Origin: Candidatus Saccharimonas aalborgensis
Lineage (GTDB): Bacteria; Patescibacteriota; Saccharimonadia; Saccharimonadales; Saccharimonadaceae
Direction: 5' to 3'
Length of the DNA stretch: 32,000 nt
Assembly: GCF_000392435.1 (NCBI RefSeq)
Contig: NC_021219.1
Location: 810,001-842,000 of the forward strand
This document shows positions 8,261 to 16,441 of this stretch, piece by piece. The notes below the pieces were generated by a model, which had not been told where the DNA came from, did no database searches, and saw nothing but the letters and a program-made list of their open reading frames with translations. The position numbers and the translations under genes are program-made. Each line of letters opens with the position of its first letter. Position 1 is the first letter of the stretch.

Positions 8261-8268
8261 ATTACTTA
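8261..8268. repeat. Left copy of the 8-bp target-site duplication ATTACTTA
   Basis: Identical to 16434..16441 and directly abuts the outer end of the left inverted repeat. Confidence 0.8.
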
Positions 8269-8296
8269 GGCAATTATATACTTGATGTCACCAAAT
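8269..8296 (+). repeat. Left terminal inverted repeat of the IS1595-family element
   Basis: See the mobile_element entry. It begins GGCAATTAT, which fits my recollection of the GGnnATTAT-type ends in one IS1595 subgroup (to be checked in ISfinder). Confidence 0.75.
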
Positions 8297-8329
8297 CACA
8301 CTAAAGGCGGCTATTCTTGAAAAGTAAAG

Positions 8330-8560
8330 CTACCTGTCATTTTCTAAATCTTCGATCTCTTTGCGTTGATCTTTGACCCACTTTGCAACTTCGTTATTCG
8401 TCATAGGCGGGGCTTGCGACATTTCTTTTACCGCGTCCTGAAAAGCAGCGCCAACTCTTACGCGGCGCTCATTTTCGCGTACAGGCTTTTCTTGATCGGC
8501 TTTAATTTGAGCCTCTAGCTCCTTGATCTCTGCCTTAGTCGGCTTTTTATCTGTTGTCAT
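8330..8560 (-). CDS. Small charged/coiled-coil hypothetical protein (76 aa), cargo of the IS element
   Basis: ORF track 8330..8584. I moved the start to ATG 8560 (MTTDKKPTKAEIKELEAQIKADQEK...). No family recognised. Confidence 0.45.
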   Translation of the reverse strand: MTTDKKPTKAEIKELEAQIKADQEKPVRENERRVRVGAAFQDAVKEMSQAPPMTNNEVAKWVKDQRKEIEDLENDR

Positions 8561-8592
8561 GCCTTGATTATAACAAAACGCCACGACATTAT

Positions 8593-9036
8593 TTAGTGAT
8601 ACAATACATATGCACTTTTGCAGACGTCTCGATAGAGCCGCTCTGCTTCTGTCCTGTCAAAAGTACCTGCATCGTAATCAATTATCTTATAGTTAAAGTC
8701 ATCGTATGGCATGACGTACCGCGCATTACCATACCACGGCACTTCATCAAACTTTTTGATGAGTTTTTGCCATAACCTCCCACATTCGGTTTCGTTCATC
8801 AGGCGCATCGTATATATCACGCCACTATGATGCCGGAGGATTGCCATGCAAATGAAATCAAATTGTTGTGCGGCAGGCTCGAGGCCCGCCATATACCGCA
8901 CTGTGTCGACTTCTGGGCCTGACATCTGGTGCTGCTCACCGTTTTTGCCGCTGATGTAGTGGCCTTTGCTGTCGAACCAGTGCGGTTCATCTGGGCGGAT
9001 GTATCTGACTGAAGTGAAGCGAGGGAGATAGAGCAT
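8593..9036 (-). CDS. Hypothetical protein (147 aa), cargo of the IS element
   Basis: ORF track 8593..9099. I moved the start to ATG 9036 (MLYLPRFTSVRYIRPDEPHWFDSKGHY...). No family recognised. Confidence 0.5.
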   Translation of the reverse strand: MLYLPRFTSVRYIRPDEPHWFDSKGHYISGKNGEQHQMSGPEVDTVRYMAGLEPAAQQFDFICMAILRHHSGVIYTMRLMNETECGRLWQKLIKKFDEVPWYGNARYVMPYDDFNYKIIDYDAGTFDRTEAERLYRDVCKSAYVLYH

Positions 9037-9101
9037 GGTCTTAGTGTAGCATCCGATCCCTCTATTCCCATAAATACACCTTAGCGCTATACTAAACAAT
9101 A

Positions 9102-9695
9102 ATGCTTATCCTGCCACGAAAACGTCCGCACTCTATTGCCCGTATTGTTTTGCTTTTGCTTATAGTGTGCCTTCTTCTCGGTGGTGGCTACCTCCTCCTG
9201 CTTGTTTCTGCGCCGGCCATTGCTCCACTTGCCATCAAGTCGATCGATACAAAAACCTTACCTACACCAAAAGTAGGCGATAACCGCATCATCATTCCAA
9301 AAATCGGTGTCAATATACCCTACGGAACAGACGGACTCAACTCGCTCAACCACGGAGCCTGGTGGCGCTATCCAGAGAGAGGCAACCCGATCGATGGCGG
9401 TAATTTCATCATCGCAGCCCACCGCTTCACACTAGAGGGCACCGTTGCCGGGACGATTGAAAAGTCGCCATTCTACAACCTTGGCAAACTCGTGCTGAAC
9501 GACCAAATCCTGATTGACTACAACGGCAAACGTTACACCTATTACGTTGATAAAATCTTTGATGTCAAACCGACACAAACGGAGATTGAGGCGCCGAGCA
9601 AAGATGCGAAACTCACCCTCTATACATGCAGCCTCGGCGGTTCAAGCGATGGCCGGCTTGTTTTGATAGCCAAGCAAGTGATGGCAGCAAACTAA
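9102..9695 (+). CDS. Sortase-family transpeptidase
   Basis: N-terminal TM anchor, catalytic His context NFIIAAHRF, catalytic Cys context KLTLYTCS, and a C-terminal Arg (DGRLVLIA). Confidence 0.8.
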   Translation: MLILPRKRPHSIARIVLLLLIVCLLLGGGYLLLLVSAPAIAPLAIKSIDTKTLPTPKVGDNRIIIPKIGVNIPYGTDGLNSLNHGAWWRYPERGNPIDGGNFIIAAHRFTLEGTVAGTIEKSPFYNLGKLVLNDQILIDYNGKRYTYYVDKIFDVKPTQTEIEAPSKDAKLTLYTCSLGGSSDGRLVLIAKQVMAAN

Positions 9696-9704
9696 CCTCC
9701 AGCA

Positions 9705-10739
9705 ATGAAGTCTCTCAGGCGTTCACTCCAGTCAACCGCCAAGCAGTCTTCTCTCCACGAGGCCTATCGACGAGCCGTCCGCAACAAATCGCAGCGCCCC
9801 GAGGTTGCACGGTTCTTGCCCCAAAAAGTTCTCTTGCTGCATCAAATAACAAGGAGTTTGCAAACACAGACATACGTGCCCTCGCCGTACTATGAGTTTA
9901 CGATTCATGATCCAAAAACCAGGCATATCCTAGCCCTTCCGATTCATGACCGTATCGTTCACCAGTGGGTCGTCGAGGAATTCATCAAACCCTACTATAT
10001 CCCGCGATTTATCGCCCATACCTACGCCTGCATTCCCGAACGTGGCACGCACCAGGCCGTTGCCACCGCTCAGCATTTTTTGCGTACGGCGCTCGCTCAC
10101 TTCACCTCGCCCTATATTATCAAGTTGGATATCGCCAGCTTCTTCTCGAATATCGACAAAGCGATTCTCTACCAACTGCTCGCAAAGAACATCCGCGATA
10201 GGGAGCTCCAAGCACTTCTTTTTACCATTCTTTTTCACAATACACCCACGCAGGGTATCCCCATCGGCAACTATACCTCACAGTATTTTGCTAATATCTA
10301 CCTCAATGAGCTTGACCAGTTCGTAAAGCGAGAGCTGAAAGTCAAATACTACGTGCGCTATATGGACGATTTCATTTGTTTTGTTGAGAGCAAAAATGAA
10401 GCGGGGCGCATTTACCAAGCAATCGAGTCATTCTTATACACCAAACTGCACCTCCCACTCAATCCTAAAAGTCGCTACTATCCGGCACGTCACGGACTGG
10501 ATTTTTGCGGTTACAAAATCCATCCGCATCACAGAAGGCTTCGTAATCGCAGTAAACGCAAGTTATGTGAAATCATCGATGAGTACGAAAGTGGAATGGA
10601 TTCACTAGAGCGTTTTGAGCTCCGCGTCAATTCTTGGCTTGGCCATGCAGCACATGTGAACGCCCACACTTACACGCGACGTAAGTTGGCTCGCTATCAG
10701 GAGCAGTTCCGATCCTTGCGCCAAAAAAACAGTCCCTGA
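9705..10739 (+). CDS. DGR-type reverse transcriptase
   Basis: RT motifs include the DGR-diagnostic IGNYTSQYFANIYL (I/LGxxxSQ) and the catalytic YVRYMDDF. The 344-aa size is typical of DGR RTs. A TR/VR pair lies within 2 kb. Confidence 0.9.
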   Translation: MKSLRRSLQSTAKQSSLHEAYRRAVRNKSQRPEVARFLPQKVLLLHQITRSLQTQTYVPSPYYEFTIHDPKTRHILALPIHDRIVHQWVVEEFIKPYYIPRFIAHTYACIPERGTHQAVATAQHFLRTALAHFTSPYIIKLDIASFFSNIDKAILYQLLAKNIRDRELQALLFTILFHNTPTQGIPIGNYTSQYFANIYLNELDQFVKRELKVKYYVRYMDDFICFVESKNEAGRIYQAIESFLYTKLHLPLNPKSRYYPARHGLDFCGYKIHPHHRRLRNRSKRKLCEIIDEYESGMDSLERFELRVNSWLGHAAHVNAHTYTRRKLARYQEQFRSLRQKNSP

Positions 10740-10893
10740 GAGTCAGCGAAATCCGCCTACCAAAAAGGGACTGTCGTATTGATATGTTTATTCTCCCGCT
10801 AAGTAAACGAGAGAAGAGGACGAGTCTCTGAGTGTTGCGTGCATGCCCTTCGCCTCCGTAGAGCGCTACTCAGGCACTTTAGTTTGCTACACG

Positions 10894-11079
10894 CTGGACA
10901 ACACGAAATCCGTTATCGTTGTTCGCCGACCCGTCGTTGGTATTCGCATAGAACAGACCAGCGTTCGAACCATTGTTCGCATTGCCGCCCCGGATAACCC
11001 AAGGGTTGTTCGGGTCGACCGAGTTCGAATTCTCGCCGAGCCACGACTGATTCCAGTCGGACACCGGCGAGGCGGAGGT
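10894..11079 (-). repeat. DGR template repeat (TR), 186 bp
   Basis: Gap-free alignment to 12262..12447 shows 23 mismatches. All 23 fall at positions that are A on the minus (sense) strand of this copy. This copy encodes an Asn-rich peptide (...ENSNSVDPNNPWVIRGGNANNGSNAGLFYANTNDGSANNDNGFRVVQ). Confidence 0.95.
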
Positions 11080-11167
11080 GTCACCGTGCGAGACAAGCCC
11101 TAGCATGATGAACATGCCGTCTACAGTATACTTCGGATACTAGCAAAGTGATAGAATAAGAAAAGAT

Positions 11168-11554
11168 ATGTCCAAAAAGTACGAAGTAGTTGTTAAAACA
11201 GACCTTATAGATTCGCCGCACGATCATGAGATGACGGCTGCGGTTATTTTGGCGCATCACTTCAAAACAAATGTTATATTCCTGCGCCCAGAACGAAAGA
11301 AGACGCCAGATATAGAGGCCAACGGTACAAAGTGGGAAGTCAAGAGTCCGAAAGGTGATGGCAGAAAGACGATAGACAACAACTTGCGAACAGCCCGTAA
11401 ACAGTCCCATAACATAGTCATAGATTTACGCCGAGCCAAACTCCACCAGAAGAAAGCGGAAGCACGGATCCGCTACTACCTCGCGTCTGGTCCGCATGAC
11501 ATCAAACGGCTCAAGATTATTACGAAAGCCCGAAAAATTATTGACATACTGTAA
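11168..11554 (+). CDS. Small hypothetical protein (128 aa) with a PD-(D/E)xK-like motif (putative restriction-endonuclease-fold / CdiA-CT-like)
   Basis: ORF track 11168..11554 (+). The motif KKTPDIEANGTKWEVKSPKG (PD...ExK) is followed by ...RKQSHNIVIDL. The region is AT-richer than its neighbours. Function is inferred from the motif only. Confidence 0.5.
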   Translation: MSKKYEVVVKTDLIDSPHDHEMTAAVILAHHFKTNVIFLRPERKKTPDIEANGTKWEVKSPKGDGRKTIDNNLRTARKQSHNIVIDLRRAKLHQKKAEARIRYYLASGPHDIKRLKIITKARKIIDIL

Positions 11555-11619
11555 GTGTTTTGTTATTATGAAAGGTAGATAAGGCGCGCGCGTTACTGTA
11601 CTGTATCAACCGCGTCTTT

Positions 11620-12207
11620 TCATTTTGCTGCCTCTTTCTTCCCTAAACTCATCGCCCACCCTACCACCGCGTCATCAAGATTGGAGAGCTTGCCTGCCCA
11701 GGCTGTCAGGTTTTTGTCGGTGATATAGCGCTTGTTGTAGGCATATTCGACTAGCACGGCGATCATTTTGATGCGGATATCGGCTTTGCGGAGCAGTTGC
11801 TCGCGATTATGGTCACGGCTGTAGTAGCTGGCGGCCTCAAGGATCAGCTCAACCACATCTTCGGTGCGGCCACGGATGGCTTGCATCAGGCCGAGCTTTT
11901 CGTGTTTCGGAAATTTCTCAATCAAGGTGTAGGTATAGTTGAGTAGCAGCGTCGCCTGGTAGTAGGTTTGGTAGTGGACGGGCGGCATCTTGCGGGCACG
12001 CTGGCGCATTTTATTGACAGCTGATGGTTTCTTGGCTTTTGATGGAGTTGACGTAGGTGCTTTTTGGGCACTTTCTGCTATTTTAGCTATTTTTTCACGC
12101 TTTGGCGGCTTCGCCGCAGCGGATTTCGGCAGCTGGTCTGTGGGACCAGCTGCCACCTCGCCGAAAAGGCTCGCTTGCACACTTGAAGAAAGTGGTTTCT
12201 TAGGCAT
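11620..12207 (-). CDS. avd: Avd-like DGR accessory protein (four-helix-bundle family) with a Lys/Pro/Ala-rich N-terminal extension
   Basis: The C-terminal ~120 aa (YQTYYQATLLLNYTYTLIEKFPKHEKLGLMQAIRGRTEDVVELILEAA...IRIKMIAVLVEYAYNKRYITDKNL...) matches the Avd / '23S rRNA intervening-sequence protein' pattern. The gene sits directly downstream of the VR-bearing gene. Confidence 0.75.
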   Translation of the reverse strand: MPKKPLSSSVQASLFGEVAAGPTDQLPKSAAAKPPKREKIAKIAESAQKAPTSTPSKAKKPSAVNKMRQRARKMPPVHYQTYYQATLLLNYTYTLIEKFPKHEKLGLMQAIRGRTEDVVELILEAASYYSRDHNREQLLRKADIRIKMIAVLVEYAYNKRYITDKNLTAWAGKLSNLDDAVVGWAMSLGKKEAAK

Positions 12208-12237
12208 AGTGATGAAAAGAGTTAAAGAGATAAACGC

Positions 12238-12255
12238 TTTTAGCTGAAGCTAAAA
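12238..12255 (-). promoter_or_regulatory. Hairpin immediately 3' of the VR (candidate DGR target-recognition hairpin)
   Basis: TTTTAGC (12238-12244), a TGAA loop, then GCTAAAA (12249-12255). It overlaps the target-gene stop codon (12250-12252), lies 7 nt from the VR end, and is absent next to the TR. Confidence 0.5.
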
Positions 12256-14253
12256 CCGACTCTGGACAACACGAAAGCCGCTACCGCCGTACGCCGACCC
12301 GTCGTCGGTAACCGCAGAGAACAGACCAGCGTACGAACCACTGTCCGCAACGCCGCCCCGGAAAACCCAAGGGAGGTACGGGTCGACCGAGATCGAAATC
12401 TCGCCGAGCCACGACTGACCCCAGTCGGACACCGGCGAGGCGGAGGTCGTCTCAAAGAACGCTTGGCCGCCGCAGGTTGCCCAGGTACAATTCTGGTAGT
12501 TTCCGAAGTAGTCGCCAGCGGCAGCGTTGAAGGTAGTTGTGCTGTAGCCGTCAAAGTATTTGCTGGCTGGGAGCGTGGCAAAGCCGCTATTATCGCTATA
12601 GTTCGCAATATTGGTATCGTTGACGAGATGTGCCATGACATATTGCCAGTTACCACCGACCATGTCGTAGATGCCACTGGTGTTGCCGGTGGTGCTGGCT
12701 GTTTGGCCGATCGTAGTCTGGTACGCGCCGCTGTCATCAGTGCCAACCGCGCAGCTCTGCGTATAACTGGCGCTTGACGAACCACCACTCCAGCCAGTAC
12801 GACCGTTGTAGTCGTTCCAGTCAGCTGCGACACAGTTATTGATTGCTACAGGATTTGCTGCGCCTTGGCCGTAGACACTCGTCGTGAGATACGCCACCGC
12901 ACCCCAGTCGCTGTTGGTCATCATGCGGGAGTCGGTCGTGCCAGCGCTCATACCCTGGTAGGTTGCTTTAGTGCTGTCGGCGAAGCTCTGGGCGGTGGCG
13001 AACTGGTTCGAAACGGTCTGGTTGCTGAAGCCCCATTGGTTTGGCTTGATCGTGACGTCACCGCTCGTGACCGCTGCCGCCGAAGCGGTTTCGCTGGCAA
13101 CATTGGCCTCGCTGCTGGTACTGGTCTGGTATTTACCGACCCAGATACCGTTGAGCTGCGCCGTGCCAAAGGTAAAGGCAGGGTGTGTTGCCCAGCCGCC
13201 GATGGTCGTGCCGTTATACGAGGTAGTCTGGCTGGCGGTTTGGAACTTGATGTTGAAGTTGTACGGGCTGGCGGTCGAGAGCACGTCTGCACCGGTGCCG
13301 TCTTGGCATTGCCCGGCACTGAGTGTCAGTGAATCGCTCGCATTCGGGCGGCAAACTTGATATTGGTAACGCGGGATGTAGGTGTAGTAGCCAAGTACGT
13401 CACTTTCAGGGATGATGGTGCCAGCGGCAGCGTTTTGATAGGTGGTACGCACGCCAGCCTTGACCGCAACAGCATTCGCCCATTGCTTGGCCTGGTAGTT
13501 ATACCAATTGCCTTCGCTGTTGACGTCAGCCTTGCTCCACTGTGGGCTTGCCGTCGTACCGGTGTACGTGACGGGGATAAGGGCAGCATCCATGTCGACC
13601 TGGCAAGCACTTACTGGGTTGGCGTTTTCACAAACAGCAGGGTTAGCGGGGACAGGAGTTTCCGTCAGCGTGTAGGTCAACTTAAGATCGCTCGTGCCCG
13701 GGGTGGCGTTGGCGGTTGCGGCAACCGTGAGGGTGGTGTTGACTGCCGTGCTCGTTGCGGCGCTTGATGATTGCTTCACGGTGACGGGACTTGCAGCAAT
13801 AGGCGTATCCGAAGTGAGGTCACCGCCCTTCACTGTGGCGCTGACACCATTGGCGCTTTGGGCTTGGACGAGGGTCAAGGTGTAGCCAGCGGTCGAAGTA
13901 GTATTCAATGTTGCCGTGGTTGGAATGGTCGCCTGGCTGCCCTGGGCAACGGAAATAGCTTGGTTTTGTGGCGTCAAGGCGAGGGTGGCAGTGGCAGAAG
14001 CGGCGTGGGTCTGCGAGAAGATAAAAACACCCGTAAGACCAGCTAGTGCGATCAGTGAGAAGAAGCCACGGAATTTGGCGCGTGCCGTGCGGCCTTGTTT
14101 GAGGTAGATGAACGTCAGTGCAGCTGCAACCAGGAGGCAGAGAGCCCCAACACCGACAAAAAGAGGTAGGTTTTCACCGGTGTTAGCAAGTGTACCGCCA
14201 CTGTTTGCTGGCGCGGTCGTGACAGTAATCGTCTGGGTGATGGATTGGTTCAT
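12250..14253 (-). CDS. DGR target (variable) surface protein with an N-terminal two-TM segment, a Thr/Ala-rich region, and a C-terminal FGE-sulfatase/C-type-lectin-fold domain carrying the VR
   Basis: 667-aa ORF with the SD AAGGGAG 7 nt upstream of ATG 14253. FGE/CLec-type landmarks are HPAFTF...GIWVGKYQTS, SGIYDMVGGNWQYV and a terminal ...RGG...GFRVVQ. The VR occupies the last ~62 codons. Confidence 0.9.
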   Translation of the reverse strand: MNQSITQTITVTTAPANSGGTLANTGENLPLFVGVGALCLLVAAALTFIYLKQGRTARAKFRGFFSLIALAGLTGVFIFSQTHAASATATLALTPQNQAISVAQGSQATIPTTATLNTTSTAGYTLTLVQAQSANGVSATVKGGDLTSDTPIAASPVTVKQSSSAATSTAVNTTLTVAATANATPGTSDLKLTYTLTETPVPANPAVCENANPVSACQVDMDAALIPVTYTGTTASPQWSKADVNSEGNWYNYQAKQWANAVAVKAGVRTTYQNAAAGTIIPESDVLGYYTYIPRYQYQVCRPNASDSLTLSAGQCQDGTGADVLSTASPYNFNIKFQTASQTTSYNGTTIGGWATHPAFTFGTAQLNGIWVGKYQTSTSSEANVASETASAAAVTSGDVTIKPNQWGFSNQTVSNQFATAQSFADSTKATYQGMSAGTTDSRMMTNSDWGAVAYLTTSVYGQGAANPVAINNCVAADWNDYNGRTGWSGGSSSASYTQSCAVGTDDSGAYQTTIGQTASTTGNTSGIYDMVGGNWQYVMAHLVNDTNIANYSDNSGFATLPASKYFDGYSTTTFNAAAGDYFGNYQNCTWATCGGQAFFETTSASPVSDWGQSWLGEISISVDPYLPWVFRGGVADSGSYAGLFSAVTDDGSAYGGSGFRVVQSRF
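12262..12447 (-). repeat. DGR variable repeat (VR), 186 bp, at the 3' end of the target gene
   Basis: It is the partner of TR 10894..11079. It ends 3 codons before the stop of CDS 12250..14253. It encodes ...EISISVDPYLPWVFRGGVADSGSYAGLFSAVTDDGSAYGGSGFRVVQ. Confidence 0.95.
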
Positions 14254-14293
14254 CGGGAGACTCCCTTCGCCACTACCTGCCCGCTGGGCGAGT

Positions 14294-14338
<45 letters not shown>

Positions 14339-14444
14339 GCTGCGAGTGTTTATATGTGAGTACGACATTCCACCAGGGTTCCTTTTGAGATTATTTGCTA
14401 TCTATTTCTCTTTTTGACAGTGGTGGATGCCTAAGATTTACTTC

Positions 14445-14474
14445 AGTTTAGCATGAGAGGAATGGGGGTGTCAA
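14445..14474 (-). promoter_or_regulatory. Candidate promoter of the DGR target gene
   Basis: The minus strand reads TTGACA (14469-14474), an 18-nt spacer, then TAAACT (14445-14450). This placement would put the (CU)n tract in the 5' UTR. Confidence 0.35.
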
Positions 14475-14502
14475 GGAACTTTGGTTGAATCTGGCGCGGT
14501 TG

Positions 14503-15333
14503 CTACAGCTTTACTAAATCTATCTCTTGCTCCTCGTCTATCTTCTGCCATAACCTACTTGTAGTCGTGGCTTTTTCTAATTGCTCTCGTGTAATCGTCG
14601 CAAACACAATCTCGTCCCACATATCTTCCTCCTCAACTGCCCGCCGTATCTGCTTAGCCAGTTTTGTCTGTGTGCGCTCGTCTGGACAAATCGCCAAGAC
14701 AGTCGGCAGCTCCCCATGCCCATACGGCCAGTCACCATCTGTGGCGTAATGAATGTAATTGCGTATTTTACGCACGCTCACAAAGAACGGCTTGGTATCG
14801 TCCCATACATCAAGAAAGTAGCGTCGTGGACTACCGGTGCCACCGCTTCCTGTCTTCTTGCCTTTGAAGCTCAGAAACAAGTCTGGCTTCCATGTAGGAA
14901 AGTACTCGTATGGTGTGAGCTGGCTGCTCGCAAATGAACGGAGTTTGTCGTCATATATGGCTTGTAATGTCAGGACGGTATCAGCTACGTTGAGGCAGTG
15001 CGTGATGAACTCTGGCGATACGGTTTTGTTTTTGTAGAGAGCTTTTATAGCCCACTCGTTTGTACTATCTGCTGGTAACTGGCGTGCGCCTTTGGGCGTC
15101 AAAAAATACTCCGCTGGTCGTCCTGCGAGCTTGTATGACTTGTTGTAGTGCTTGCTAATAAAGCCGCGTTCTTCGAGTATCTGTAGCTTGTTCTGTATGG
15201 TCTTCTGGTTCGGTTTAAGTAGGTACTTAGCTATTTGTTTACTATTACTGAAACGTACTTTATACAGCCAGTCTAATACCGCTACTTGCTCTAGGTTTAA
15301 GGGTCTTCTATACTTCGGTTCTGCTACTGTCAT
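14503..15333 (-). CDS. Replication-relaxation-family (winged-HTH) protein
   Basis: The N-terminal wHTH-like segment LNLEQVAVLDWLYKVRFSNSKQIAKYLLKPNQKTIQNKLQILEERGFISKHY resembles the Replic_Relax family. I moved the start to ATG 15333 (MTVAEPKYRR). The 41-codon upstream extension in the track is low-complexity and would overlap the transposase gene. Confidence 0.5.
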   Translation of the reverse strand: MTVAEPKYRRPLNLEQVAVLDWLYKVRFSNSKQIAKYLLKPNQKTIQNKLQILEERGFISKHYNKSYKLAGRPAEYFLTPKGARQLPADSTNEWAIKALYKNKTVSPEFITHCLNVADTVLTLQAIYDDKLRSFASSQLTPYEYFPTWKPDLFLSFKGKKTGSGGTGSPRRYFLDVWDDTKPFFVSVRKIRNYIHYATDGDWPYGHGELPTVLAICPDERTQTKLAKQIRRAVEEEDMWDEIVFATITREQLEKATTTSRLWQKIDEEQEIDLVKL

Positions 15334-15440
15334 ACGCTTAGTCACTTTCTTCTTATATTTATATATAAAAAGAGAGGAAAAGAAAAGAAGTGAAAACAGA
15401 TAGAAAGAGTAGTTATAGGTTGGGTATCGATACCAAAGTT

Positions 15441-16385
15441 TTAAGAACGCCTGCAAATGAGGTTCCTGTACATCAGGCGCTTGCCGTCGATGTTATCAAA
15501 CCATACCTCAAAACGCTCGCCGTCAGTCAGTTCGCGCGTATTCCAGCGGAACGTATATTCATCACAGTATAGCTGCAAATGCTTGGCGCTTACATGGTGG
15601 TAAATACCATTGATACCGCGCTTTAGGTGCGACCAAAAGCCCTCTGCGGTGTTCGTACTAGCCATGCCGTTTACAAACTCTTTGACGCCGTGGTTGACGC
15701 TTTCGTGCTTGAAACCAATTTTAGGCAGGGTGCGATACGGCATGTGTTCGTCTGTGTAGATCGTAGCGTCAATAGCAATGTTCTTGCGCGCTAGGTTCAT
15801 GAGCGTAGCGCTACCTGTGTCTTTTGTTGCAATAACGCGTAGGCGGCCGCCACGTTCAACCATGCCGACGACAGGAGCTTTACTATTCTTGCTGCCGTGG
15901 CCTTGTGCGCCTTTGCCAGTAAGAGTCTTAAGTTTCTTGTTGTGGTGCTTGTATTTATCTGAGCCGCCTATATACGCCTCGTCCATTTCAACCTCACCAG
16001 TTAGCTTCTCGAAGCTGCCAGTTTCAAACACATGGCGTATACGTTGGAGCATAAACCAAGCAGTTTTTTGGGTGACGCCAATATACTTACTTAGCTGAAT
16101 AGAAGACACGCCCTTTTTGAGGCTCGTACATAGATAGATCGCCAAAAACCATTTACGGAGCGGTACAGGGCTTTCTTCAAAGATAATACCCATACGGACG
16201 GTAAATGGGTTACGGCAGCTAGCGCACTTCATGCGGCCGCTGGCGAGCTTATAATACTTGATACCTATTTCACCACATTTTGGGCAAGTAACGCCGTCTG
16301 ACCAGCGCTGCTCAAACAAGAACTTTTGACACTGTTCTTCTGTGGCAAATGAGTCGTAGAATTGGATGAGGTTGAATGCTTCCAT
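15441..16385 (-). CDS. IS1595-family (ISXO2-like) DDE transposase
   Basis: N-terminal zinc-ribbon/HTH: FATEEQCQKFLFEQRWSDGVTCPKCGE...KCASCRNPFTVRMGIIFEESPVPLRKWFLAIYL...GVSSIQLSKYIGVTQKTAWFMLQRIR. This is followed by a DDE domain (EVEMDEAYIGG...TDEHMPY...). Confidence 0.9.
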   Translation of the reverse strand: MEAFNLIQFYDSFATEEQCQKFLFEQRWSDGVTCPKCGEIGIKYYKLASGRMKCASCRNPFTVRMGIIFEESPVPLRKWFLAIYLCTSLKKGVSSIQLSKYIGVTQKTAWFMLQRIRHVFETGSFEKLTGEVEMDEAYIGGSDKYKHHNKKLKTLTGKGAQGHGSKNSKAPVVGMVERGGRLRVIATKDTGSATLMNLARKNIAIDATIYTDEHMPYRTLPKIGFKHESVNHGVKEFVNGMASTNTAEGFWSHLKRGINGIYHHVSAKHLQLYCDEYTFRWNTRELTDGERFEVWFDNIDGKRLMYRNLICRRS

Positions 16386-16405
16386 GCCTCTATTGTATCA
16401 GGGGT

Positions 16406-16433
16406 AGTTGGTAACGTCAAGTATATAATTACC
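16406..16433 (-). repeat. Right terminal inverted repeat of the IS1595-family element
   Basis: The reverse complement reads GGTAATTATATACTTGACGTTACCAACT and pairs with 8269..8296. Confidence 0.75.
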
Positions 16434-16441
16434 ATTACTTA
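16434..16441. repeat. Right copy of the 8-bp target-site duplication ATTACTTA
   Basis: Identical to 8261..8268 and directly abuts the right IR. Confidence 0.8.

What the first reader, a model, noticed from the sequence alone, without database searches (positions are those of the whole stretch)
9705..14253. Complete, apparently active diversity-generating retroelement: a 186-bp TR/VR pair with 23 strictly adenine-specific differences
- TR 10894..11079 and VR 12262..12447 align without gaps.
- All 23 mismatches sit where the TR sense (minus) strand has A.
- 14 TR Asn codons, plus one Ile, one Tyr and one Asp, correspond to G,I,I,Y,L,F,V,D,S,Y,S,V,D,Y,G,G,S in the VR.
- The VR ends 3 codons before the stop of a 667-aa protein with an FGE/C-type-lectin-type C-terminus.
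- An RT with IGNYTSQ and YMDD motifs and an Avd-like gene are adjacent.
- This is the textbook signature of DGR mutagenic retrohoming.
Basis: partly seen in the sequence, partly recalled or inferred. Interest (0 to 1): 0.8.

Follow-up and report, generated by a model that had tools for sequence, protein, structure and literature searches.

The report
Active DGR riding an IS1595 transposon
This is a real, currently active diversity-generating retroelement in a Saccharibacteria (TM7) genome, and the whole kit (hypervariable surface protein, its sortase, reverse transcriptase, template RNA) is the cargo of an 8.2-kb jumping gene that has recently hopped between sites and between distantly related hosts.

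Summary
TR 10894-11079 and VR 12262-12447 (minus strand) align without gaps. All 23 mismatches sit at TR adenines (P about 6e-19). The interpretation as a complete, active DGR is supported:
- The RT carries the DGR-specific SQ motif, and its best solved relative is an unnamed 328-aa RT that I take to be the Bordetella phage DGR RT.
- An Avd-like gene is present.
- The target C-terminus models as the CLec fold of the Thermus DGR variable protein.
- Thirteen near-identical copies from other samples carry 13 different VR peptides, and every variable VR residue lies at an adenine-containing TR codon.

- The RT lies on the opposite strand, convergent with a discrete ~400-nt TR RNA unit. This unit has a conserved, covarying 3' domain and a terminator.
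- The whole cassette, plus a sortase, a Replic_Relax gene and an IS1595 transposase, is an 8,165-bp transposon (8269-16433). It has 26-bp inverted repeats and an 8-bp target duplication. I found seven insertion sites, exact empty sites, and 99.4% identity in a host whose flanking genes are only ~71% identical.
- The target has a sortase-type LAxTG sorting signal at its N-terminus.

The DGR mechanism is textbook. The vehicle and the anchoring are the new parts.

The parts
8261..8268 (.). Left copy of the 8-bp target-site duplication ATTACTTA
   Evidence: Empty-site contigs L052, L056, L057 and L058 carry a single ATTACTTA and match the predicted pre-insertion sequence 112/112 nt.
8269..8294 (+). 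Left terminal inverted repeat (26 nt) of the transposon
   Evidence: it matches the right IR at 23/26, with 0 matches expected by chance. The same IR sits at the element ends in other genomes.
8330..8584 (-). orf84, a small conserved gene at the left end of this transposon family (function unknown)
   Evidence: tblastn finds it next to the left IR in many family members, including ones without the DGR. No Pfam or NCBIfam hit.
8593..9099 (-). ORF of unknown function (168 aa from the first start codon; gene callers-147 aa), cargo
   Evidence: No family hit.
9102..9695 (+). Sortase (197 aa; N-terminal TM segment, His in IAAHR, Cys in LTLYTC, Arg present), 10 nt upstream of the RT
   Evidence: Pfam Sortase 3e-17. 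The best NCBIfam subfamily is class E, well below its cut-off. It is adjacent to the RT in all relatives with at least 75% RT identity.
9705..10739 (+). DGR reverse transcriptase (344 aa; IGNYTSQ and YMDD motifs)
   Evidence: RVT_1 3e-16. Best PDB hit 8ub7 at E 3.7e-44 over residues 14-322. 3741 homologues, mostly from CPR.
10721..10775 (-). Intrinsic terminator of the TR RNA: nested stems 10775-10766/10737-10728 and 10761-10754/10748-10741, then a U7 run. It overlaps the RT stop codon on the other strand.
   Evidence: helices 7 and 8 have 7 pairs with compensatory changes, and 100% and 93% of cells are paired.
10776..10893 (-). Conserved structured RNA directly 3' of the TR (Sp-like). It is a multi-stem domain with an invariant UACG-capped stem-loop carrying a bulged G (10866-10852), plus the 3' half of a long-range duplex (CACU..GAGAC..GUCCU).
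   Evidence: Long invariant blocks persist across relatives whose RTs are only 57-82% identical. RNAalifold predicts 42 pairs, 11 with compensatory changes; 0 of 500 shuffles reach this, and slid controls give 0-3.
10894..11079 (-). Template repeat (TR), 186 nt with 40 adenines. No adenine-mutated codon can become a stop.
   Evidence: Identical in 9 loci from other samples.
11080..11130 (-). 5' leader of the TR RNA. It holds an invariant 22-nt block AGGGCTTGTCTCGCACGGTGAC (11101-11080), which pairs with the Sp region, and a -10-like TATACT (11130-11125).
   Evidence: The long-range duplex is predicted in all 6 relatives. L065 has GCUCC x GGAGU in place of GUCUC x GAGAC, which is 3 compensatory pairs.
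11168..11554 (+). Nested gene for a standalone CdiA_C-type PD-(D/E)xK nuclease (128 aa). Probably a hitch-hiker, not a core DGR part.
   Evidence: PF18451 1e-17. AF2 pLDDT 90, and the top Foldseek hit is 4g6v CdiA-CT of B. pseudomallei at E 6.9e-6. The same slot holds an NYN gene, nothing, or an AAA_14 gene in relatives. The family also occurs away from DGRs.
11620..12207 (-). Avd-like accessory gene (195 aa), with an ~80-aa Lys/Pro/Ala-rich N-terminal extension
   Evidence: Pfam bAvd 2.2e-9 (38.2 bits, cut-off 40). NCBIfam DivGenRetAVD 3.6e-11 (43 bits, cut-off 80). It lies directly 3' of the target gene in all relatives.
12235..12258 (-). Hairpin directly 3' of the VR (CG.TTTTAGC-TTCA-GCTAAAA.CG), overlapping the stop codon
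   Evidence: DNA fold z-scores -3.6 to -6.0. The stem is conserved and the loop varies (TTCA, CTCG, TTTA) in relatives.
12262..12447 (-). Variable repeat (VR), codons 603-664 of the target
   Evidence: There are 6 distinct VR DNA sequences and 13 distinct VR peptides among near-identical copies.
12250..14253 (-). Target gene (667 aa). Parts in order: N-terminal strand, LAxTG signal, two TM helices, beta-sandwich (89-198), then a large CLec/FGE-type domain ending in the VR. Identical to L336_0831 of Candidatus Saccharimonas aalborgensis.
   Evidence: AF2 pLDDT 89.6, pTM 0.79. Foldseek top hit TaqVP 5vf4 at E 8.6e-9. A family profile hits 5vf4 at E 0.0026. Identity to AGL62533.1.
14089..14193 (-). 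N-terminal sortase-type sorting signal (residues 21-55: T-LANTG-E, hydrophobic helix, KQGR), followed by a second helix and an AxA-like site (THA|AS)
   Evidence: TIGR01167 LPXTG_anchor scores 17.2 bits (cut-off 15.9) on the isolated N-terminus; relatives score 22-23 bits. The signal is conserved down to 47% identity.
14297..14332 (.). (CT)18 microsatellite in the target gene 5' leader
   Evidence: n = 5, 11, 11, 13, 14, 14, 18, 18 and 22 across the window and eight other copies, and 6-16 in relatives.
14445..14474 (-). Promoter-like site (TTGACA-18-TAAACT) upstream of the target gene
   Evidence: Consensus match only.
14503..15456 (-). Replic_Relax (replication-relaxation) gene, part of the transposon backbone
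   Evidence: PF13814 4.8e-17. Present next to the transposase in family members with other cargo.
15441..16385 (-). IS1595-family DDE transposase (314 aa, with Zn ribbon)
   Evidence: PF12762 9.5e-45 and PF12760 2.9e-11. NCBIfam transpos_IS1595 198.9 bits, cut-off 75.
16408..16433 (-). Right terminal inverted repeat (26 nt); a promoter-like site for the transposase lies within it
16434..16441 (.). Right copy of the target-site duplication ATTACTTA

Best explanation
Window 8269-16433 is an 8,165-bp IS1595-family transposon of Candidatus Saccharimonas (Saccharibacteria, TM7). Its cargo is a complete, currently active DGR.

How the DGR works:
- Shown by sequence: a discrete ~400-nt RNA unit lies on the minus strand. 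It consists of a leader, the 186-nt TR, a conserved structured 3' domain and an intrinsic terminator. It runs convergent to the RT gene.
- Inferred by homology to the Bordetella phage bRT-Avd-RNA system: RT and Avd bind the stem-loops 3' of the TR and the leader/3' long-range duplex. They prime in cis and copy the TR into cDNA while misincorporating opposite adenines. The cDNA then replaces the VR at the 3' end of the target gene, guided by the shared 3' end (TTTCGTGTTGTCCAG) and the hairpin that follows the VR.
- Shown by natural variation: only the A-containing codons of the last 62 codons change. The theoretical repertoire is about 1e23 proteins, and no stop codon can be created.

The target (predicted) is a surface protein whose C-terminal CLec-fold domain displays the variable residues. 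It probably binds ligands on host bacteria or other partners.

How the vehicle works (shown): the DDE transposase acts on 26-bp inverted repeats and makes 8-bp duplications in AT-rich sites. The element occupies at least seven sites, exact empty sites exist, and it has crossed between hosts whose core genes are only ~71% identical. I infer that Replic_Relax and the T4SS that I believe is common in these bacteria help transfer between cells.
For: TR/VR statistics.

RT: SQ and YMDD motifs; best solved relative 8ub7 at E 3.7e-44.

Avd.

Target fold: AF2 pLDDT 89.6; Foldseek top hit TaqVP 5vf4 at E 8.6e-9, probability 1.0; profile hit to 5vf4.

VR hairpin.

TR RNA:
- Invariant blocks and covariation, with 11 compensatory pairs and 0 of 500 shuffles reaching that.
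- Leader/Sp duplex with 3 compensatory pairs in L065.
- It matches the element types described for DGR RNAs in bioRxiv 10.1101/2023.10.23.563531.

Activity:
- TR has 0 mismatches in 9 loci, and there are 6 VR DNA variants.
- L010 sits at the same insertion site as the window but has a different VR.
- There are 13 distinct VR peptides; 9 of the 13 proteins are identical outside the VR.
- 36 of the 40 TR adenines are substituted somewhere.

Transposon:
- IRs and TSDs. ATTACTTA, AATAATTA, TACTACTC and TAAAAATG were seen at both ends. TTTATTTT, TAAAATAT and TAAATGAT were seen at one end only.
- Empty sites match 112/112 nt.
- Family members with other cargo have their own perfect TSDs.
- The element is 99.4% identical in L004, against ~71% for the flanks.

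Host: Saccharibacteria record titles; the target is identical to the Ca. S. aalborgensis protein.
Against: - No read-level or experimental data were available, so activity is inferred from differences between assemblies.
- Avd scores fall just below both curated cut-offs.
- The target has no Pfam or NCBIfam hit; its CLec assignment rests on a predicted structure and a weak profile hit.
- No clear -35/-10 pair was found for the TR RNA.
- Two non-adenine VR changes occur, each next to an adenine (L004 T>G, L005 G>T).
- The role of Replic_Relax, and any conjugative transfer, are untested.
- Covariation rests on only six sequences, and the structure was derived from the same alignment.
Confidence: 0.9

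Rival explanations
1. The DGR is a recently dead fossil. The VR differences between copies were made in the past and nothing is being diversified now.
For: All evidence is from assemblies, not time series. L003 shows broken target, Replic_Relax and transposase ORFs.
Against: - The RT, Avd, TR, VR hairpin and TR RNA are intact, and the TR and the RT protein are identical across copies.
- 13 VR peptides sit on backgrounds with 0-4 other changes in 605 residues.
- Two VRs occur at the very same insertion site with 99.8-99.9% identical surroundings (L010 against the window).
- The L003 breaks look like indel errors of a long-read assembly, because the flanks are otherwise 100% identical.
Confidence: 0.05
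2. The 8.2-kb block is not moved by its own transposase. It is passed around by homologous recombination or as part of a larger ICE, and the IRs are the remains of an IS inserted beside it.
For: In relatives with 75-82% RT identity, the same DGR-sortase module sits next to T4SS genes, Replic_Relax and a serine recombinase, with no IS1595 transposase called within the ~9-kb flanks examined.
Against: - Perfect 8-bp duplications flank both IRs at four sites, and the empty site is exact to the base.
- Flanking DNA at the other sites shares no similarity with the window.
- No second, inner IR lies near the transposase that would define a simple IS.
- The family carries different cargo between the same IRs, each copy with its own TSD.
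Confidence: 0.04
3. The N-terminal LAxTG motif of the target is not a sortase substrate. The N-terminus is simply a two-helix membrane anchor (or a long signal peptide), and the neighbouring sortase serves other proteins.
For: - Known sorting signals are C-terminal.
- The TIGR01167 score is only just above its cut-off (17.2 against 15.9), and short hydrophobic models hit easily.
- More distant DGR relatives with the same motif have no adjacent sortase.
Against: - Motif, helix and basic patch are conserved from 100% down to 47% identity, and relatives score 22-23 bits.
- The sortase is adjacent in all close relatives despite changes in its orientation.
- The positive-inside rule places LANTG outside the membrane, as in real substrates (inference).
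- AF2 places residues 2-14 as a confident strand (pLDDT about 88), although they are separated from the ectodomain by the two helices.
Confidence: 0.5
4. The nested nuclease gene (CdiA_C-type here, NYN in a sister element) is a new DGR accessory factor that processes or nicks the TR RNA.
For: - Two unrelated predicted nucleases (at least one of them a predicted RNase) alternate in the same slot between TR and avd.
- One model of DGR priming involves a nicked template RNA (PMC5703328 abstract).
Against: - The slot is empty in L045/L046 (same RT as L047) and in L065/L067, and holds an ATPase in L048.
- The CdiA_C-like family is common in Saccharimonadales away from any DGR.
- Wu et al. 2018 report that nested, non-conserved ORFs are frequent in DGR cassettes.
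Confidence: 0.08

Closest known systems
Bordetella phage BPP-1 DGR (mtd-avd-TR-brt), the prototype
   Same: - Adenine-specific TR-to-VR transfer.
- RT with an SQ motif. If 8ub7 is bRT, as I believe, it is the best solved relative (E 3.7e-44).
- An Avd partner, a VR at the 3' end of a CLec-fold target, and a hairpin after the VR.
- Structured RNA 3' of the TR, plus an upstream/downstream duplex around the TR.
   Different: - Chromosomal and transposon-borne, not phage-borne.
- The RT is on the opposite strand, convergent with the TR, so the TR RNA is a separate unit ending in its own terminator.
- The hairpin stem is AT-rich.
- Avd has an ~80-aa basic N-terminal extension.
- The target is a 667-aa cell-surface protein, not a tail-fibre tip.
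Thermus aquaticus DGR variable protein TaqVP (PDB 5vf4)
   Same: Closest solved structure to the target C-terminal ~400 residues (Foldseek E 8.6e-9, probability 1.0; profile E 0.0026). Both have an FGE/CLec-type fold with the VR at the C-terminus.
   Different: Only 17-18% identity and TM 0.41 (normalised to the target). The window protein also has an N-terminal LAxTG signal, two TM helices and a beta-sandwich domain.
CPR/Patescibacteria DGRs (Paul et al. 2017; 'CPR set' of Wu et al. 2018)
   Same: Same host radiation; Avd-containing cassettes with a single CLec-type target. Transposases have been noted near CPR DGRs (as cited in PMC10907252).
   Different: Wu et al. report architecture TR-(avd)-RT for 90% of their CPR set. 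Here the order is RT, then (TR), (avd) and (target) on the other strand. I could not read Paul et al. 2017, so I cannot say whether this locus is in their catalogue.
tISCpe8 / MTnSag1: IS1595-family insertion sequences with passenger genes (mobilisable)
   Same: IS1595-type DDE transposase, ~25-bp terminal inverted repeats, 8-bp target duplications, low target specificity in AT-rich DNA, and passenger genes (PMC5704250).
   Different: Those elements are 1.7-2.0 kb and carry one resistance gene. This one is 8.2 kb and carries nine genes, including a whole DGR, a sortase and a Replic_Relax gene. It belongs to a Saccharibacteria family whose cargo varies between 4.4 and 9.2 kb.
DGRs on other mobile elements (Bacteroides ICEs diversifying type V pilus tips; the Vibrio DGR beside Tn7-type sequences)
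   Same: DGRs that diversify adhesins and travel on mobile DNA (bioRxiv 10.1101/2024.11.15.621889; PMC3521204).
   Different: Here the vehicle is a small DDE transposon. Its ends, duplications, empty sites and multiple insertion sites are all visible in sequence. In the Vibrio case, the passages I read from PMC3521204 report no ends or target duplications.

Membership tests
Diversity-generating retroelement (DGR) | TR/VR repeat pair whose differences are confined to adenines of the TR | tested here: met
   23 of 23 mismatches at TR-A, P 6e-19. The same holds in relatives.
Diversity-generating retroelement (DGR) | RT of the DGR clade: SQ dipeptide in motif 4 ([ILV]GxxxSQ) and YxDD (criterion from PMC3521204) | tested here: met
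   IGNYTSQ and YMDD are present. Best PDB relative is the 328-aa RT 8ub7 at E 3.7e-44, against 1e-20 for group II intron and retron-type RTs. That 8ub7 is Bordetella bRT is from my memory and was not confirmed.
Diversity-generating retroelement (DGR) | VR at the 3' end of a target gene encoding a CLec (or Ig) fold that tolerates variation | tested here: met
   The VR is codons 603-664 of 667. The AF2 model's top match is the DGR variable protein TaqVP. No Pfam or NCBIfam hit.
Diversity-generating retroelement (DGR) | Accessory protein (Avd, HRDC, MSL or CH1) | tested here: inconclusive
   bAvd 38.2 bits against cut-off 40. DivGenRetAVD 43.3 bits against cut-off 80. No PDB sequence hit. Its position and conservation in all relatives support Avd.
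Diversity-generating retroelement (DGR) | cis elements: a shared 3' end of TR and VR (IMH-like), and an inverted repeat after the VR only | tested here: met
   15 identical nt lie at the 3' end. A hairpin at 12258-12235 follows the VR only and is conserved in relatives. IMH function itself is not testable here.
Diversity-generating retroelement (DGR) | Structured RNA around the TR: a stem-loop with tetraloop 3' of the TR, and an upstream/downstream duplex (bioRxiv 10.1101/2023.10.23.563531) | tested here: met
   A UACG-capped stem with a bulged G. 42 pairs, 11 of them compensatory. The leader/Sp duplex has 3 compensatory pairs. In silico only.
Diversity-generating retroelement (DGR) | Ongoing diversification of the VR with an invariant TR | tested here: met
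   comparing assemblies from different samples.
Diversity-generating retroelement (DGR) | Adenine-mutagenic cDNA synthesis and retrohoming shown experimentally | not testable with these tools
   Needs biochemistry or genetics.
IS1595-family transposon with passenger genes (tIS) | DDE_Tnp_IS1595 transposase with an N-terminal zinc ribbon | tested here: met
   PF12762 9.5e-45 and PF12760 2.9e-11. NF033547 198.9 bits, cut-off 75.
IS1595-family transposon with passenger genes (tIS) | Terminal inverted repeats of about 25 bp and 8-bp target-site duplications | tested here: met
   26-bp IRs matching 23/26. Perfect 8-bp duplications at 4 sites of this element and at 3 sites of family members.
IS1595-family transposon with passenger genes (tIS) | Mobility: several insertion sites and unoccupied sites | tested here: met
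   Seven sites. Four contigs carry the exact empty site.
Integrative mobilisable element (IME) | Relaxase and/or oriT used by a conjugative system; transfer between cells | tested here: inconclusive
   Replic_Relax scores 63 bits, cut-off 25.3, but its activity is unknown and no oriT was identified. Transfer between diverged hosts is implied by 99.4% element identity against ~71% flank identity.
Sortase-anchored surface protein (LPXTG class) | LPXTG-type motif, hydrophobic segment and basic tail | tested here: met
   TIGR01167 scores 17.2 bits (cut-off 15.9) on residues 1-60; relatives score 22-23.3 bits. The LAVTG and LAXTG models also hit.
Sortase-anchored surface protein (LPXTG class) | Sorting signal located at the C-terminus | tested here: not met
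   The signal is at residues 21-55 of 667. The C-terminus is the VR followed by SRF. The target is therefore not filed as a canonical member.
Contact-dependent inhibition (CdiA/CdiI) system | A CdiA-CT toxin domain at the end of a large filamentous CdiA, with a cognate CdiI immunity gene | tested here: not met
   Only the 128-aa domain is present (PF18451; fold of 4g6v). There is no delivery region and no adjacent small immunity gene.

The most novel reading that the evidence does not exclude
The DGR target is anchored to the cell wall by an inverted, N-terminal sortase signal, a mode of sortase anchoring I do not know to have been described.

Proposed steps:
- The N-terminus (strand 2-14 plus LANTG) is exported.
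- The element-encoded sortase cuts after Thr25 and links the 25-residue peptide to the wall.
- Signal peptidase may cut after THA84, which would remove the two-helix membrane hairpin.
- The wall-linked strand stays bound to the beta-sandwich domain (residues 89-198) by strand complementation, as in donor-strand pilins.

This would leave the C-terminus free for the VR, IMH and hairpin that the DGR needs at the gene's 3' end. Together with the transposon, the element would then be a portable, self-contained kit for a hypervariable adhesin. The kit spreads between episymbiotic Saccharibacteria.
Probability: 0.3. Interest if true: 0.8.

Novelty: new variant of a known kind. Interest (0 to 1): 0.6.

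Why it matters
- Saccharibacteria are obligate episymbionts with about 1-Mb genomes, so how they adapt their surface to hosts is an open question. This element is a natural case in which targeted hypermutation of a surface protein is packaged with its own sortase on a small transposon. That transposon demonstrably jumps and crosses between diverged hosts.
- The element has clear ends, empty sites and many natural VR variants in public wastewater metagenomes. DGR activity, dispersal and selection can therefore be followed with existing data.
- The compact 400-nt template RNA, separate from the RT gene, is a convenient unit for testing how general the Bordetella RNA mechanism is.
- If the N-terminal sorting signal is real, it extends what sortases are known to do.

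Tried and rejected
- Rfam (gathering thresholds) and tRNA scans of the whole window found nothing.
- Pfam and NCBIfam give no hit for the target, orf84 or orf168.
- Single-sequence PDB searches found nothing for the CdiA_C-like protein or for Avd.
- The IR pattern has no match in the viral contig collection.
- No paper in the library links Ca. Saccharimonas aalborgensis with a retroelement. Paul et al. 2017 is not held, and the supplements of Wu et al. 2018 are not held. I therefore could not check whether this DGR is already catalogued.
- I could not confirm from the literature that PDB 8ub7 is Bordetella bRT.
- I considered the nested nuclease as a DGR accessory and rejected it as unlikely.
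- I considered the convergent RT orientation as a novelty. I rejected this because Wu et al. 2018 already note TR and RT on different strands.
- I looked for a simple IS copy. L035 has a 1.39-kb derivative, but its transposase is truncated and it has no duplication.
- The consensus promoter scan found no convincing promoter for the TR RNA.
- I did not use the metagenome-wide scan, because the evidence was already sufficient.

Full report
**Observation.** Window 10894-11079 and 12262-12447, read on the minus strand, align without gaps over 186 nt and differ at 23 positions. All 23 are adenines in the first copy, which has 40 A among 186 nt. The chance that 23 random positions are all A is 6e-19. 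The second copy is in frame in the 667-aa ORF 12250-14253(-), covers codons 603-664, and is followed by three codons and the stop. No third copy exists in the window.

**The DGR parts.**
- RT: the ORF 9705-10739(+) is a reverse transcriptase (RVT_1 3e-16) with IGNYTSQ and YMDD. The SQ dipeptide is the published hallmark of DGR RTs (PMC3521204). Its best solved relative is the 328-aa RT 8ub7 at E 3.7e-44, far ahead of group II intron and retron-type RTs at about 1e-20. I believe 8ub7 is the Bordetella phage bRT but could not confirm this.
- Avd: ORF 11620-12207(-) matches bAvd (2e-9) and DivGenRetAVD (3.6e-11), in both cases just under the curated cut-offs. It carries an unusual ~80-residue Lys/Pro/Ala-rich N-terminal extension.
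- Target: it has no family hit. An AlphaFold model built on 99 homologues is confident (pLDDT 89.6, pTM 0.79). Its top structural match is TaqVP, the Thermus aquaticus DGR variable protein, at E 8.6e-9 and probability 1.0. A sequence profile of the family also finds that chain (E 0.0026).
- VR hairpin: directly after the VR, and overlapping the stop codon, lies the hairpin CG.TTTTAGC-TTCA-GCTAAAA.CG (12258-12235). The stem is conserved and the loop varies in relatives. The TR has no such hairpin.

**Is it active?**
- The exact RT protein occurs on at least 22 public contigs.
- In nine fetched loci the TR is identical to the window. Those loci and the window together carry six different VR sequences, with 21-28 differences from the TR, and 36 of the 40 TR adenines are substituted in at least one copy.
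- Only two non-adenine changes occur, each next to an adenine.
- L010 sits at the same chromosomal site as the window, with 99.8-99.9% identical surroundings, yet has a different VR.
- The 90% protein cluster of the target has 13 full-length members with 13 different VR peptides. Nine of them have no difference in the other 605 residues, and all 21 variable VR positions are TR codons that contain A.
- The TR allows 4^40 DNA variants and about 1e23 protein variants. None of its A-containing codons can mutate to a stop.
- I conclude that the element diversifies in nature. The only reservation is that this compares assemblies rather than reads.

**Architecture and the template RNA.**
- The RT is on the plus strand, while TR, avd and target are on the minus strand, so RT and TR converge. 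This is a clade feature: relatives with 57-82% RT identity all show it. It is not new in principle, because Wu et al. 2018 note that TR and RT can lie on different strands.
- The 154 nt between the TR and the RT stop codon are more conserved than the coding sequences around them.
- RNAalifold on six sequences predicts 42 pairs, 11 with compensatory changes and 96.8% of cells paired. None of 500 shuffles reaches this, and slid controls give 0-3 compensatory pairs.
- The domain starts at the last base of the TR. It contains an invariant UACG-capped stem-loop with a bulged G (10866-10852) and ends in a nested terminator stem plus U7 (10775-10721) that overlaps the RT stop codon.
- An invariant 22-nt block just 5' of the TR (11101-11080) pairs with the 3' domain (AGGGC..GUCUC..GGUG with CACU..GAGAC..GUCCU). 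In L065 the central helix is GCUCC with GGAGU, which is three compensatory pairs.
- These are the element types reported for the Bordetella DGR RNA and predicted in 207 other DGRs: a tetraloop-capped stem-loop just 3' of the TR, and a duplex between sequences upstream and downstream of the TR (bioRxiv 10.1101/2023.10.23.563531).
- A -10-like TATACT (TATAAT in one relative) lies about 25 nt upstream of the conserved leader block. The TR RNA therefore appears to be a separate unit of roughly 400 nt. Schillinger et al. 2012 had proposed the same idea on genomic grounds.

**The cassette is the cargo of a transposon.**
- Ends: a 26-nt inverted repeat (8269-8294 and 16408-16433, 23/26) encloses everything from orf84 to an IS1595-family transposase (15441-16385; NCBIfam 198.9 bits, cut-off 75). 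It has no other match in the window. Immediately outside both repeats is ATTACTTA.
- Other sites: the same element, 99.4-99.6% identical over 8,165 bp, sits in unrelated contexts in L002, L004 and L005. Each copy is flanked by its own perfect 8-bp duplication (AATAATTA, TACTACTC, TAAAAATG). One-sided views add TTTATTTT, TAAAATAT and TAAATGAT, giving seven AT-rich sites.
- Empty sites: four contigs that encode the identical Pth protein have der and pth adjacent with a single ATTACTTA. They match the predicted pre-insertion sequence at 112 of 112 nt.
- Transfer between hosts: in L004 the element is 99.4% identical, whereas the orthologous der, pseudouridine synthase, response-regulator and histidine-kinase genes beside it are only ~71% identical to the window. 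This means recent transfer between diverged hosts.
- The family: the IR occurs in 28 stretches of roughly 25 species-representative genomes. Most are labelled Saccharibacteria or Saccharimonadales, with one Woesebacteria and one other Patescibacteria record. Family members share the backbone orf84 ... Replic_Relax-transposase. They carry other cargo of 4.4, 7.4 and 9.2 kb, each with a perfect 8-bp duplication, and none has an RT.
- Comparators: the closest described elements are the IS1595-family tIS/IMEs tISCpe8 and MTnSag1 (25-bp IRs, 8-bp duplications, 1.7-2 kb; PMC5704250). Links between DGRs and mobile elements, including transposons, have been noted before (PMC3521204; PMC10907252; Bacteroides ICEs). 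The idea is therefore not new, but this case is unusually clean and complete.

**Host.** The target protein is identical to L336_0831 of Candidatus Saccharimonas aalborgensis. The window flanks are 99.98-100% identical to CP064959.1, the record from which L003 was taken. The rest of the window is ordinary chromosome: topA, dprA, a ZIP transporter, pth, der, a two-component system, an MMPL transporter, zwf and gnd.

**Sortase and the target N-terminus.**
- A sortase gene with His, Cys and Arg in place ends 10 nt before the RT. It is adjacent to the RT in all relatives with at least 75% RT identity, in either orientation.
- The target begins MNQSITQTITVTT...T-LANTG-E. This is followed by a hydrophobic helix, KQGRTARAKFR, a second helix and THA|AS.
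- This N-terminal piece passes the LPXTG_anchor model (17.2 bits, cut-off 15.9; relatives 22-23 bits) and also hits the LAVTG and LAXTG models.
- It is conserved down to 47% identity, and it is shared with proteins that have a different (Fib_succ_major) C-terminus.
- AlphaFold predicts residues 2-14 as a confident strand (pLDDT about 88), although two helices separate them from the ectodomain. The beta-sandwich at residues 89-198 weakly resembles donor-strand-complemented pilins (5n2b, 4y2l, 3qs2; E 0.006-0.02).
- A sorting signal at the N-terminus fails the defining C-terminal location. I therefore treat sortase processing as a hypothesis (about 0.3-0.5), not a finding.
- The attraction of the hypothesis is that the DGR needs the gene's 3' end for the VR and its hairpin, which excludes a C-terminal signal.

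**The nested gene.**
- ORF 11168-11554(+), between TR and avd, is a 128-aa CdiA_C-type protein (PF18451 1e-17) with a conserved PD...E.K motif. Its model matches the Burkholderia pseudomallei CdiA-CT (4g6v, E 6.9e-6, TM 0.62).
- In sister elements the slot holds an NYN gene, the same gene inverted, nothing, or an ATPase. The more distant relatives L065 and L067 have no nested gene.
- The family is common in Saccharimonadales away from DGRs. I regard it as a hitch-hiking nuclease, not a DGR part (about 0.08 for an accessory role).

**Verdict.** Three things lift it above a routine catalogue entry:
- It is demonstrably carried on an active, horizontally moving IS1595-family transposon.
- Its template RNA is a compact, separately terminated unit.
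- Its target appears to be coupled to a sortase through an N-terminal sorting signal.

Novelty: a new variant of a known kind. Interest: 0.6.

Noticed in passing
window 8261-16441: The whole DGR lies inside an 8,165-bp IS1595-family transposon. It has 26-bp IRs and an 8-bp duplication ATTACTTA. I found seven insertion sites, exact empty sites, and 99.4% identity in a host whose flanking genes are ~71% identical.
   Followed up: yes
window 14089-14253 (target residues 1-55) and sortase 9102-9695: The target carries an LAxTG sorting signal (motif, TM helix, basic patch) at its N-terminus, followed by a second helix and an AxA-like site. The signal is conserved to 47% identity and passes TIGR01167. 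AF2 gives a confident N-terminal strand (residues 2-14). A sortase gene is adjacent in close relatives.
   Followed up: partly
window 14297-14332: A (CT)18 microsatellite lies in the 5' leader of the target gene. Its length is 5-22 repeats across the window and eight other otherwise 99% identical copies, and 6-16 in relatives. This could mean phase variation, or it could be assembly noise. It explains why element length varies between 8138 and 8165 bp.
   Followed up: partly
window 11168-11554: A standalone 128-aa CdiA_C-type PD-(D/E)xK nuclease with no delivery domain and no immunity gene. The family is widespread in Saccharimonadales. The slot holds an NYN nuclease gene in a sister element (L042-L044).
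   Followed up: yes
window 11968-12207 (Avd residues 1-80): Avd has an ~80-residue Lys/Pro/Ala-rich, histone-tail-like N-terminal extension. Relatives also have long Avds (174-199 aa), whereas the Bordetella phage Avd is 128 aa.
   Followed up: no
L018+L019 (CAWFIL010000008.1), L025+L038 (CP025011.1), L028+L017 (CP064960.1): Sister transposons share the same IRs and the same Replic_Relax-transposase pair but carry other cargo. One (7.35 kb) holds a 378-aa and a 235-aa protein that were not scanned against any family library; they looked to me like an ATPase pair of a defence system.
   Followed up: partly
L039-L041, L045-L046: In relatives with ~75% RT identity the sortase-DGR module is not in the IS1595 transposon. 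It sits beside a T4SS gene cluster (TrbC, TrbL-like, PrgI, TraC-like, VirB4-like, CHAP, coupling protein). In L039-L041 it also sits beside Replic_Relax, DUF3768 and a large serine recombinase, which is an ICE-like setting.
   Followed up: partly
L006:4768-12760: A diverged copy (97.4% identical) lacks the left 176 nt and the left IR. Its own TR variant has a different 5' end and two G>A changes (one turns Asp657 into Asn). A second right-type IR lies at L006:114-139 in the same orientation.
   Followed up: partly
window 11541-11569 (+ strand): The strongest sigma-70-like match in the region (TTGACA-17-TATTAT with an extended TG, 11/12) points into avd in the antisense direction.
   Followed up: no
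L035:2839-5056: Three IR copies lie within 2.2 kb around a truncated transposase. The flanks of the outer pair are reverse complements of each other rather than direct repeats, which suggests an inversion between two elements.
   Followed up: no
L003 (CP064959.1): In this complete genome the target is called as 599 aa, Replic_Relax is split and the transposase is not called, although the flanks are 100% identical to the window. These are probably indel errors of a long-read assembly rather than real pseudogenes.
   Followed up: no
L004 and L005 VRs: Two non-adenine substitutions (T>G at TR position 84 and G>T at position 22, 1-based), each immediately next to a mutated adenine.
   Followed up: no
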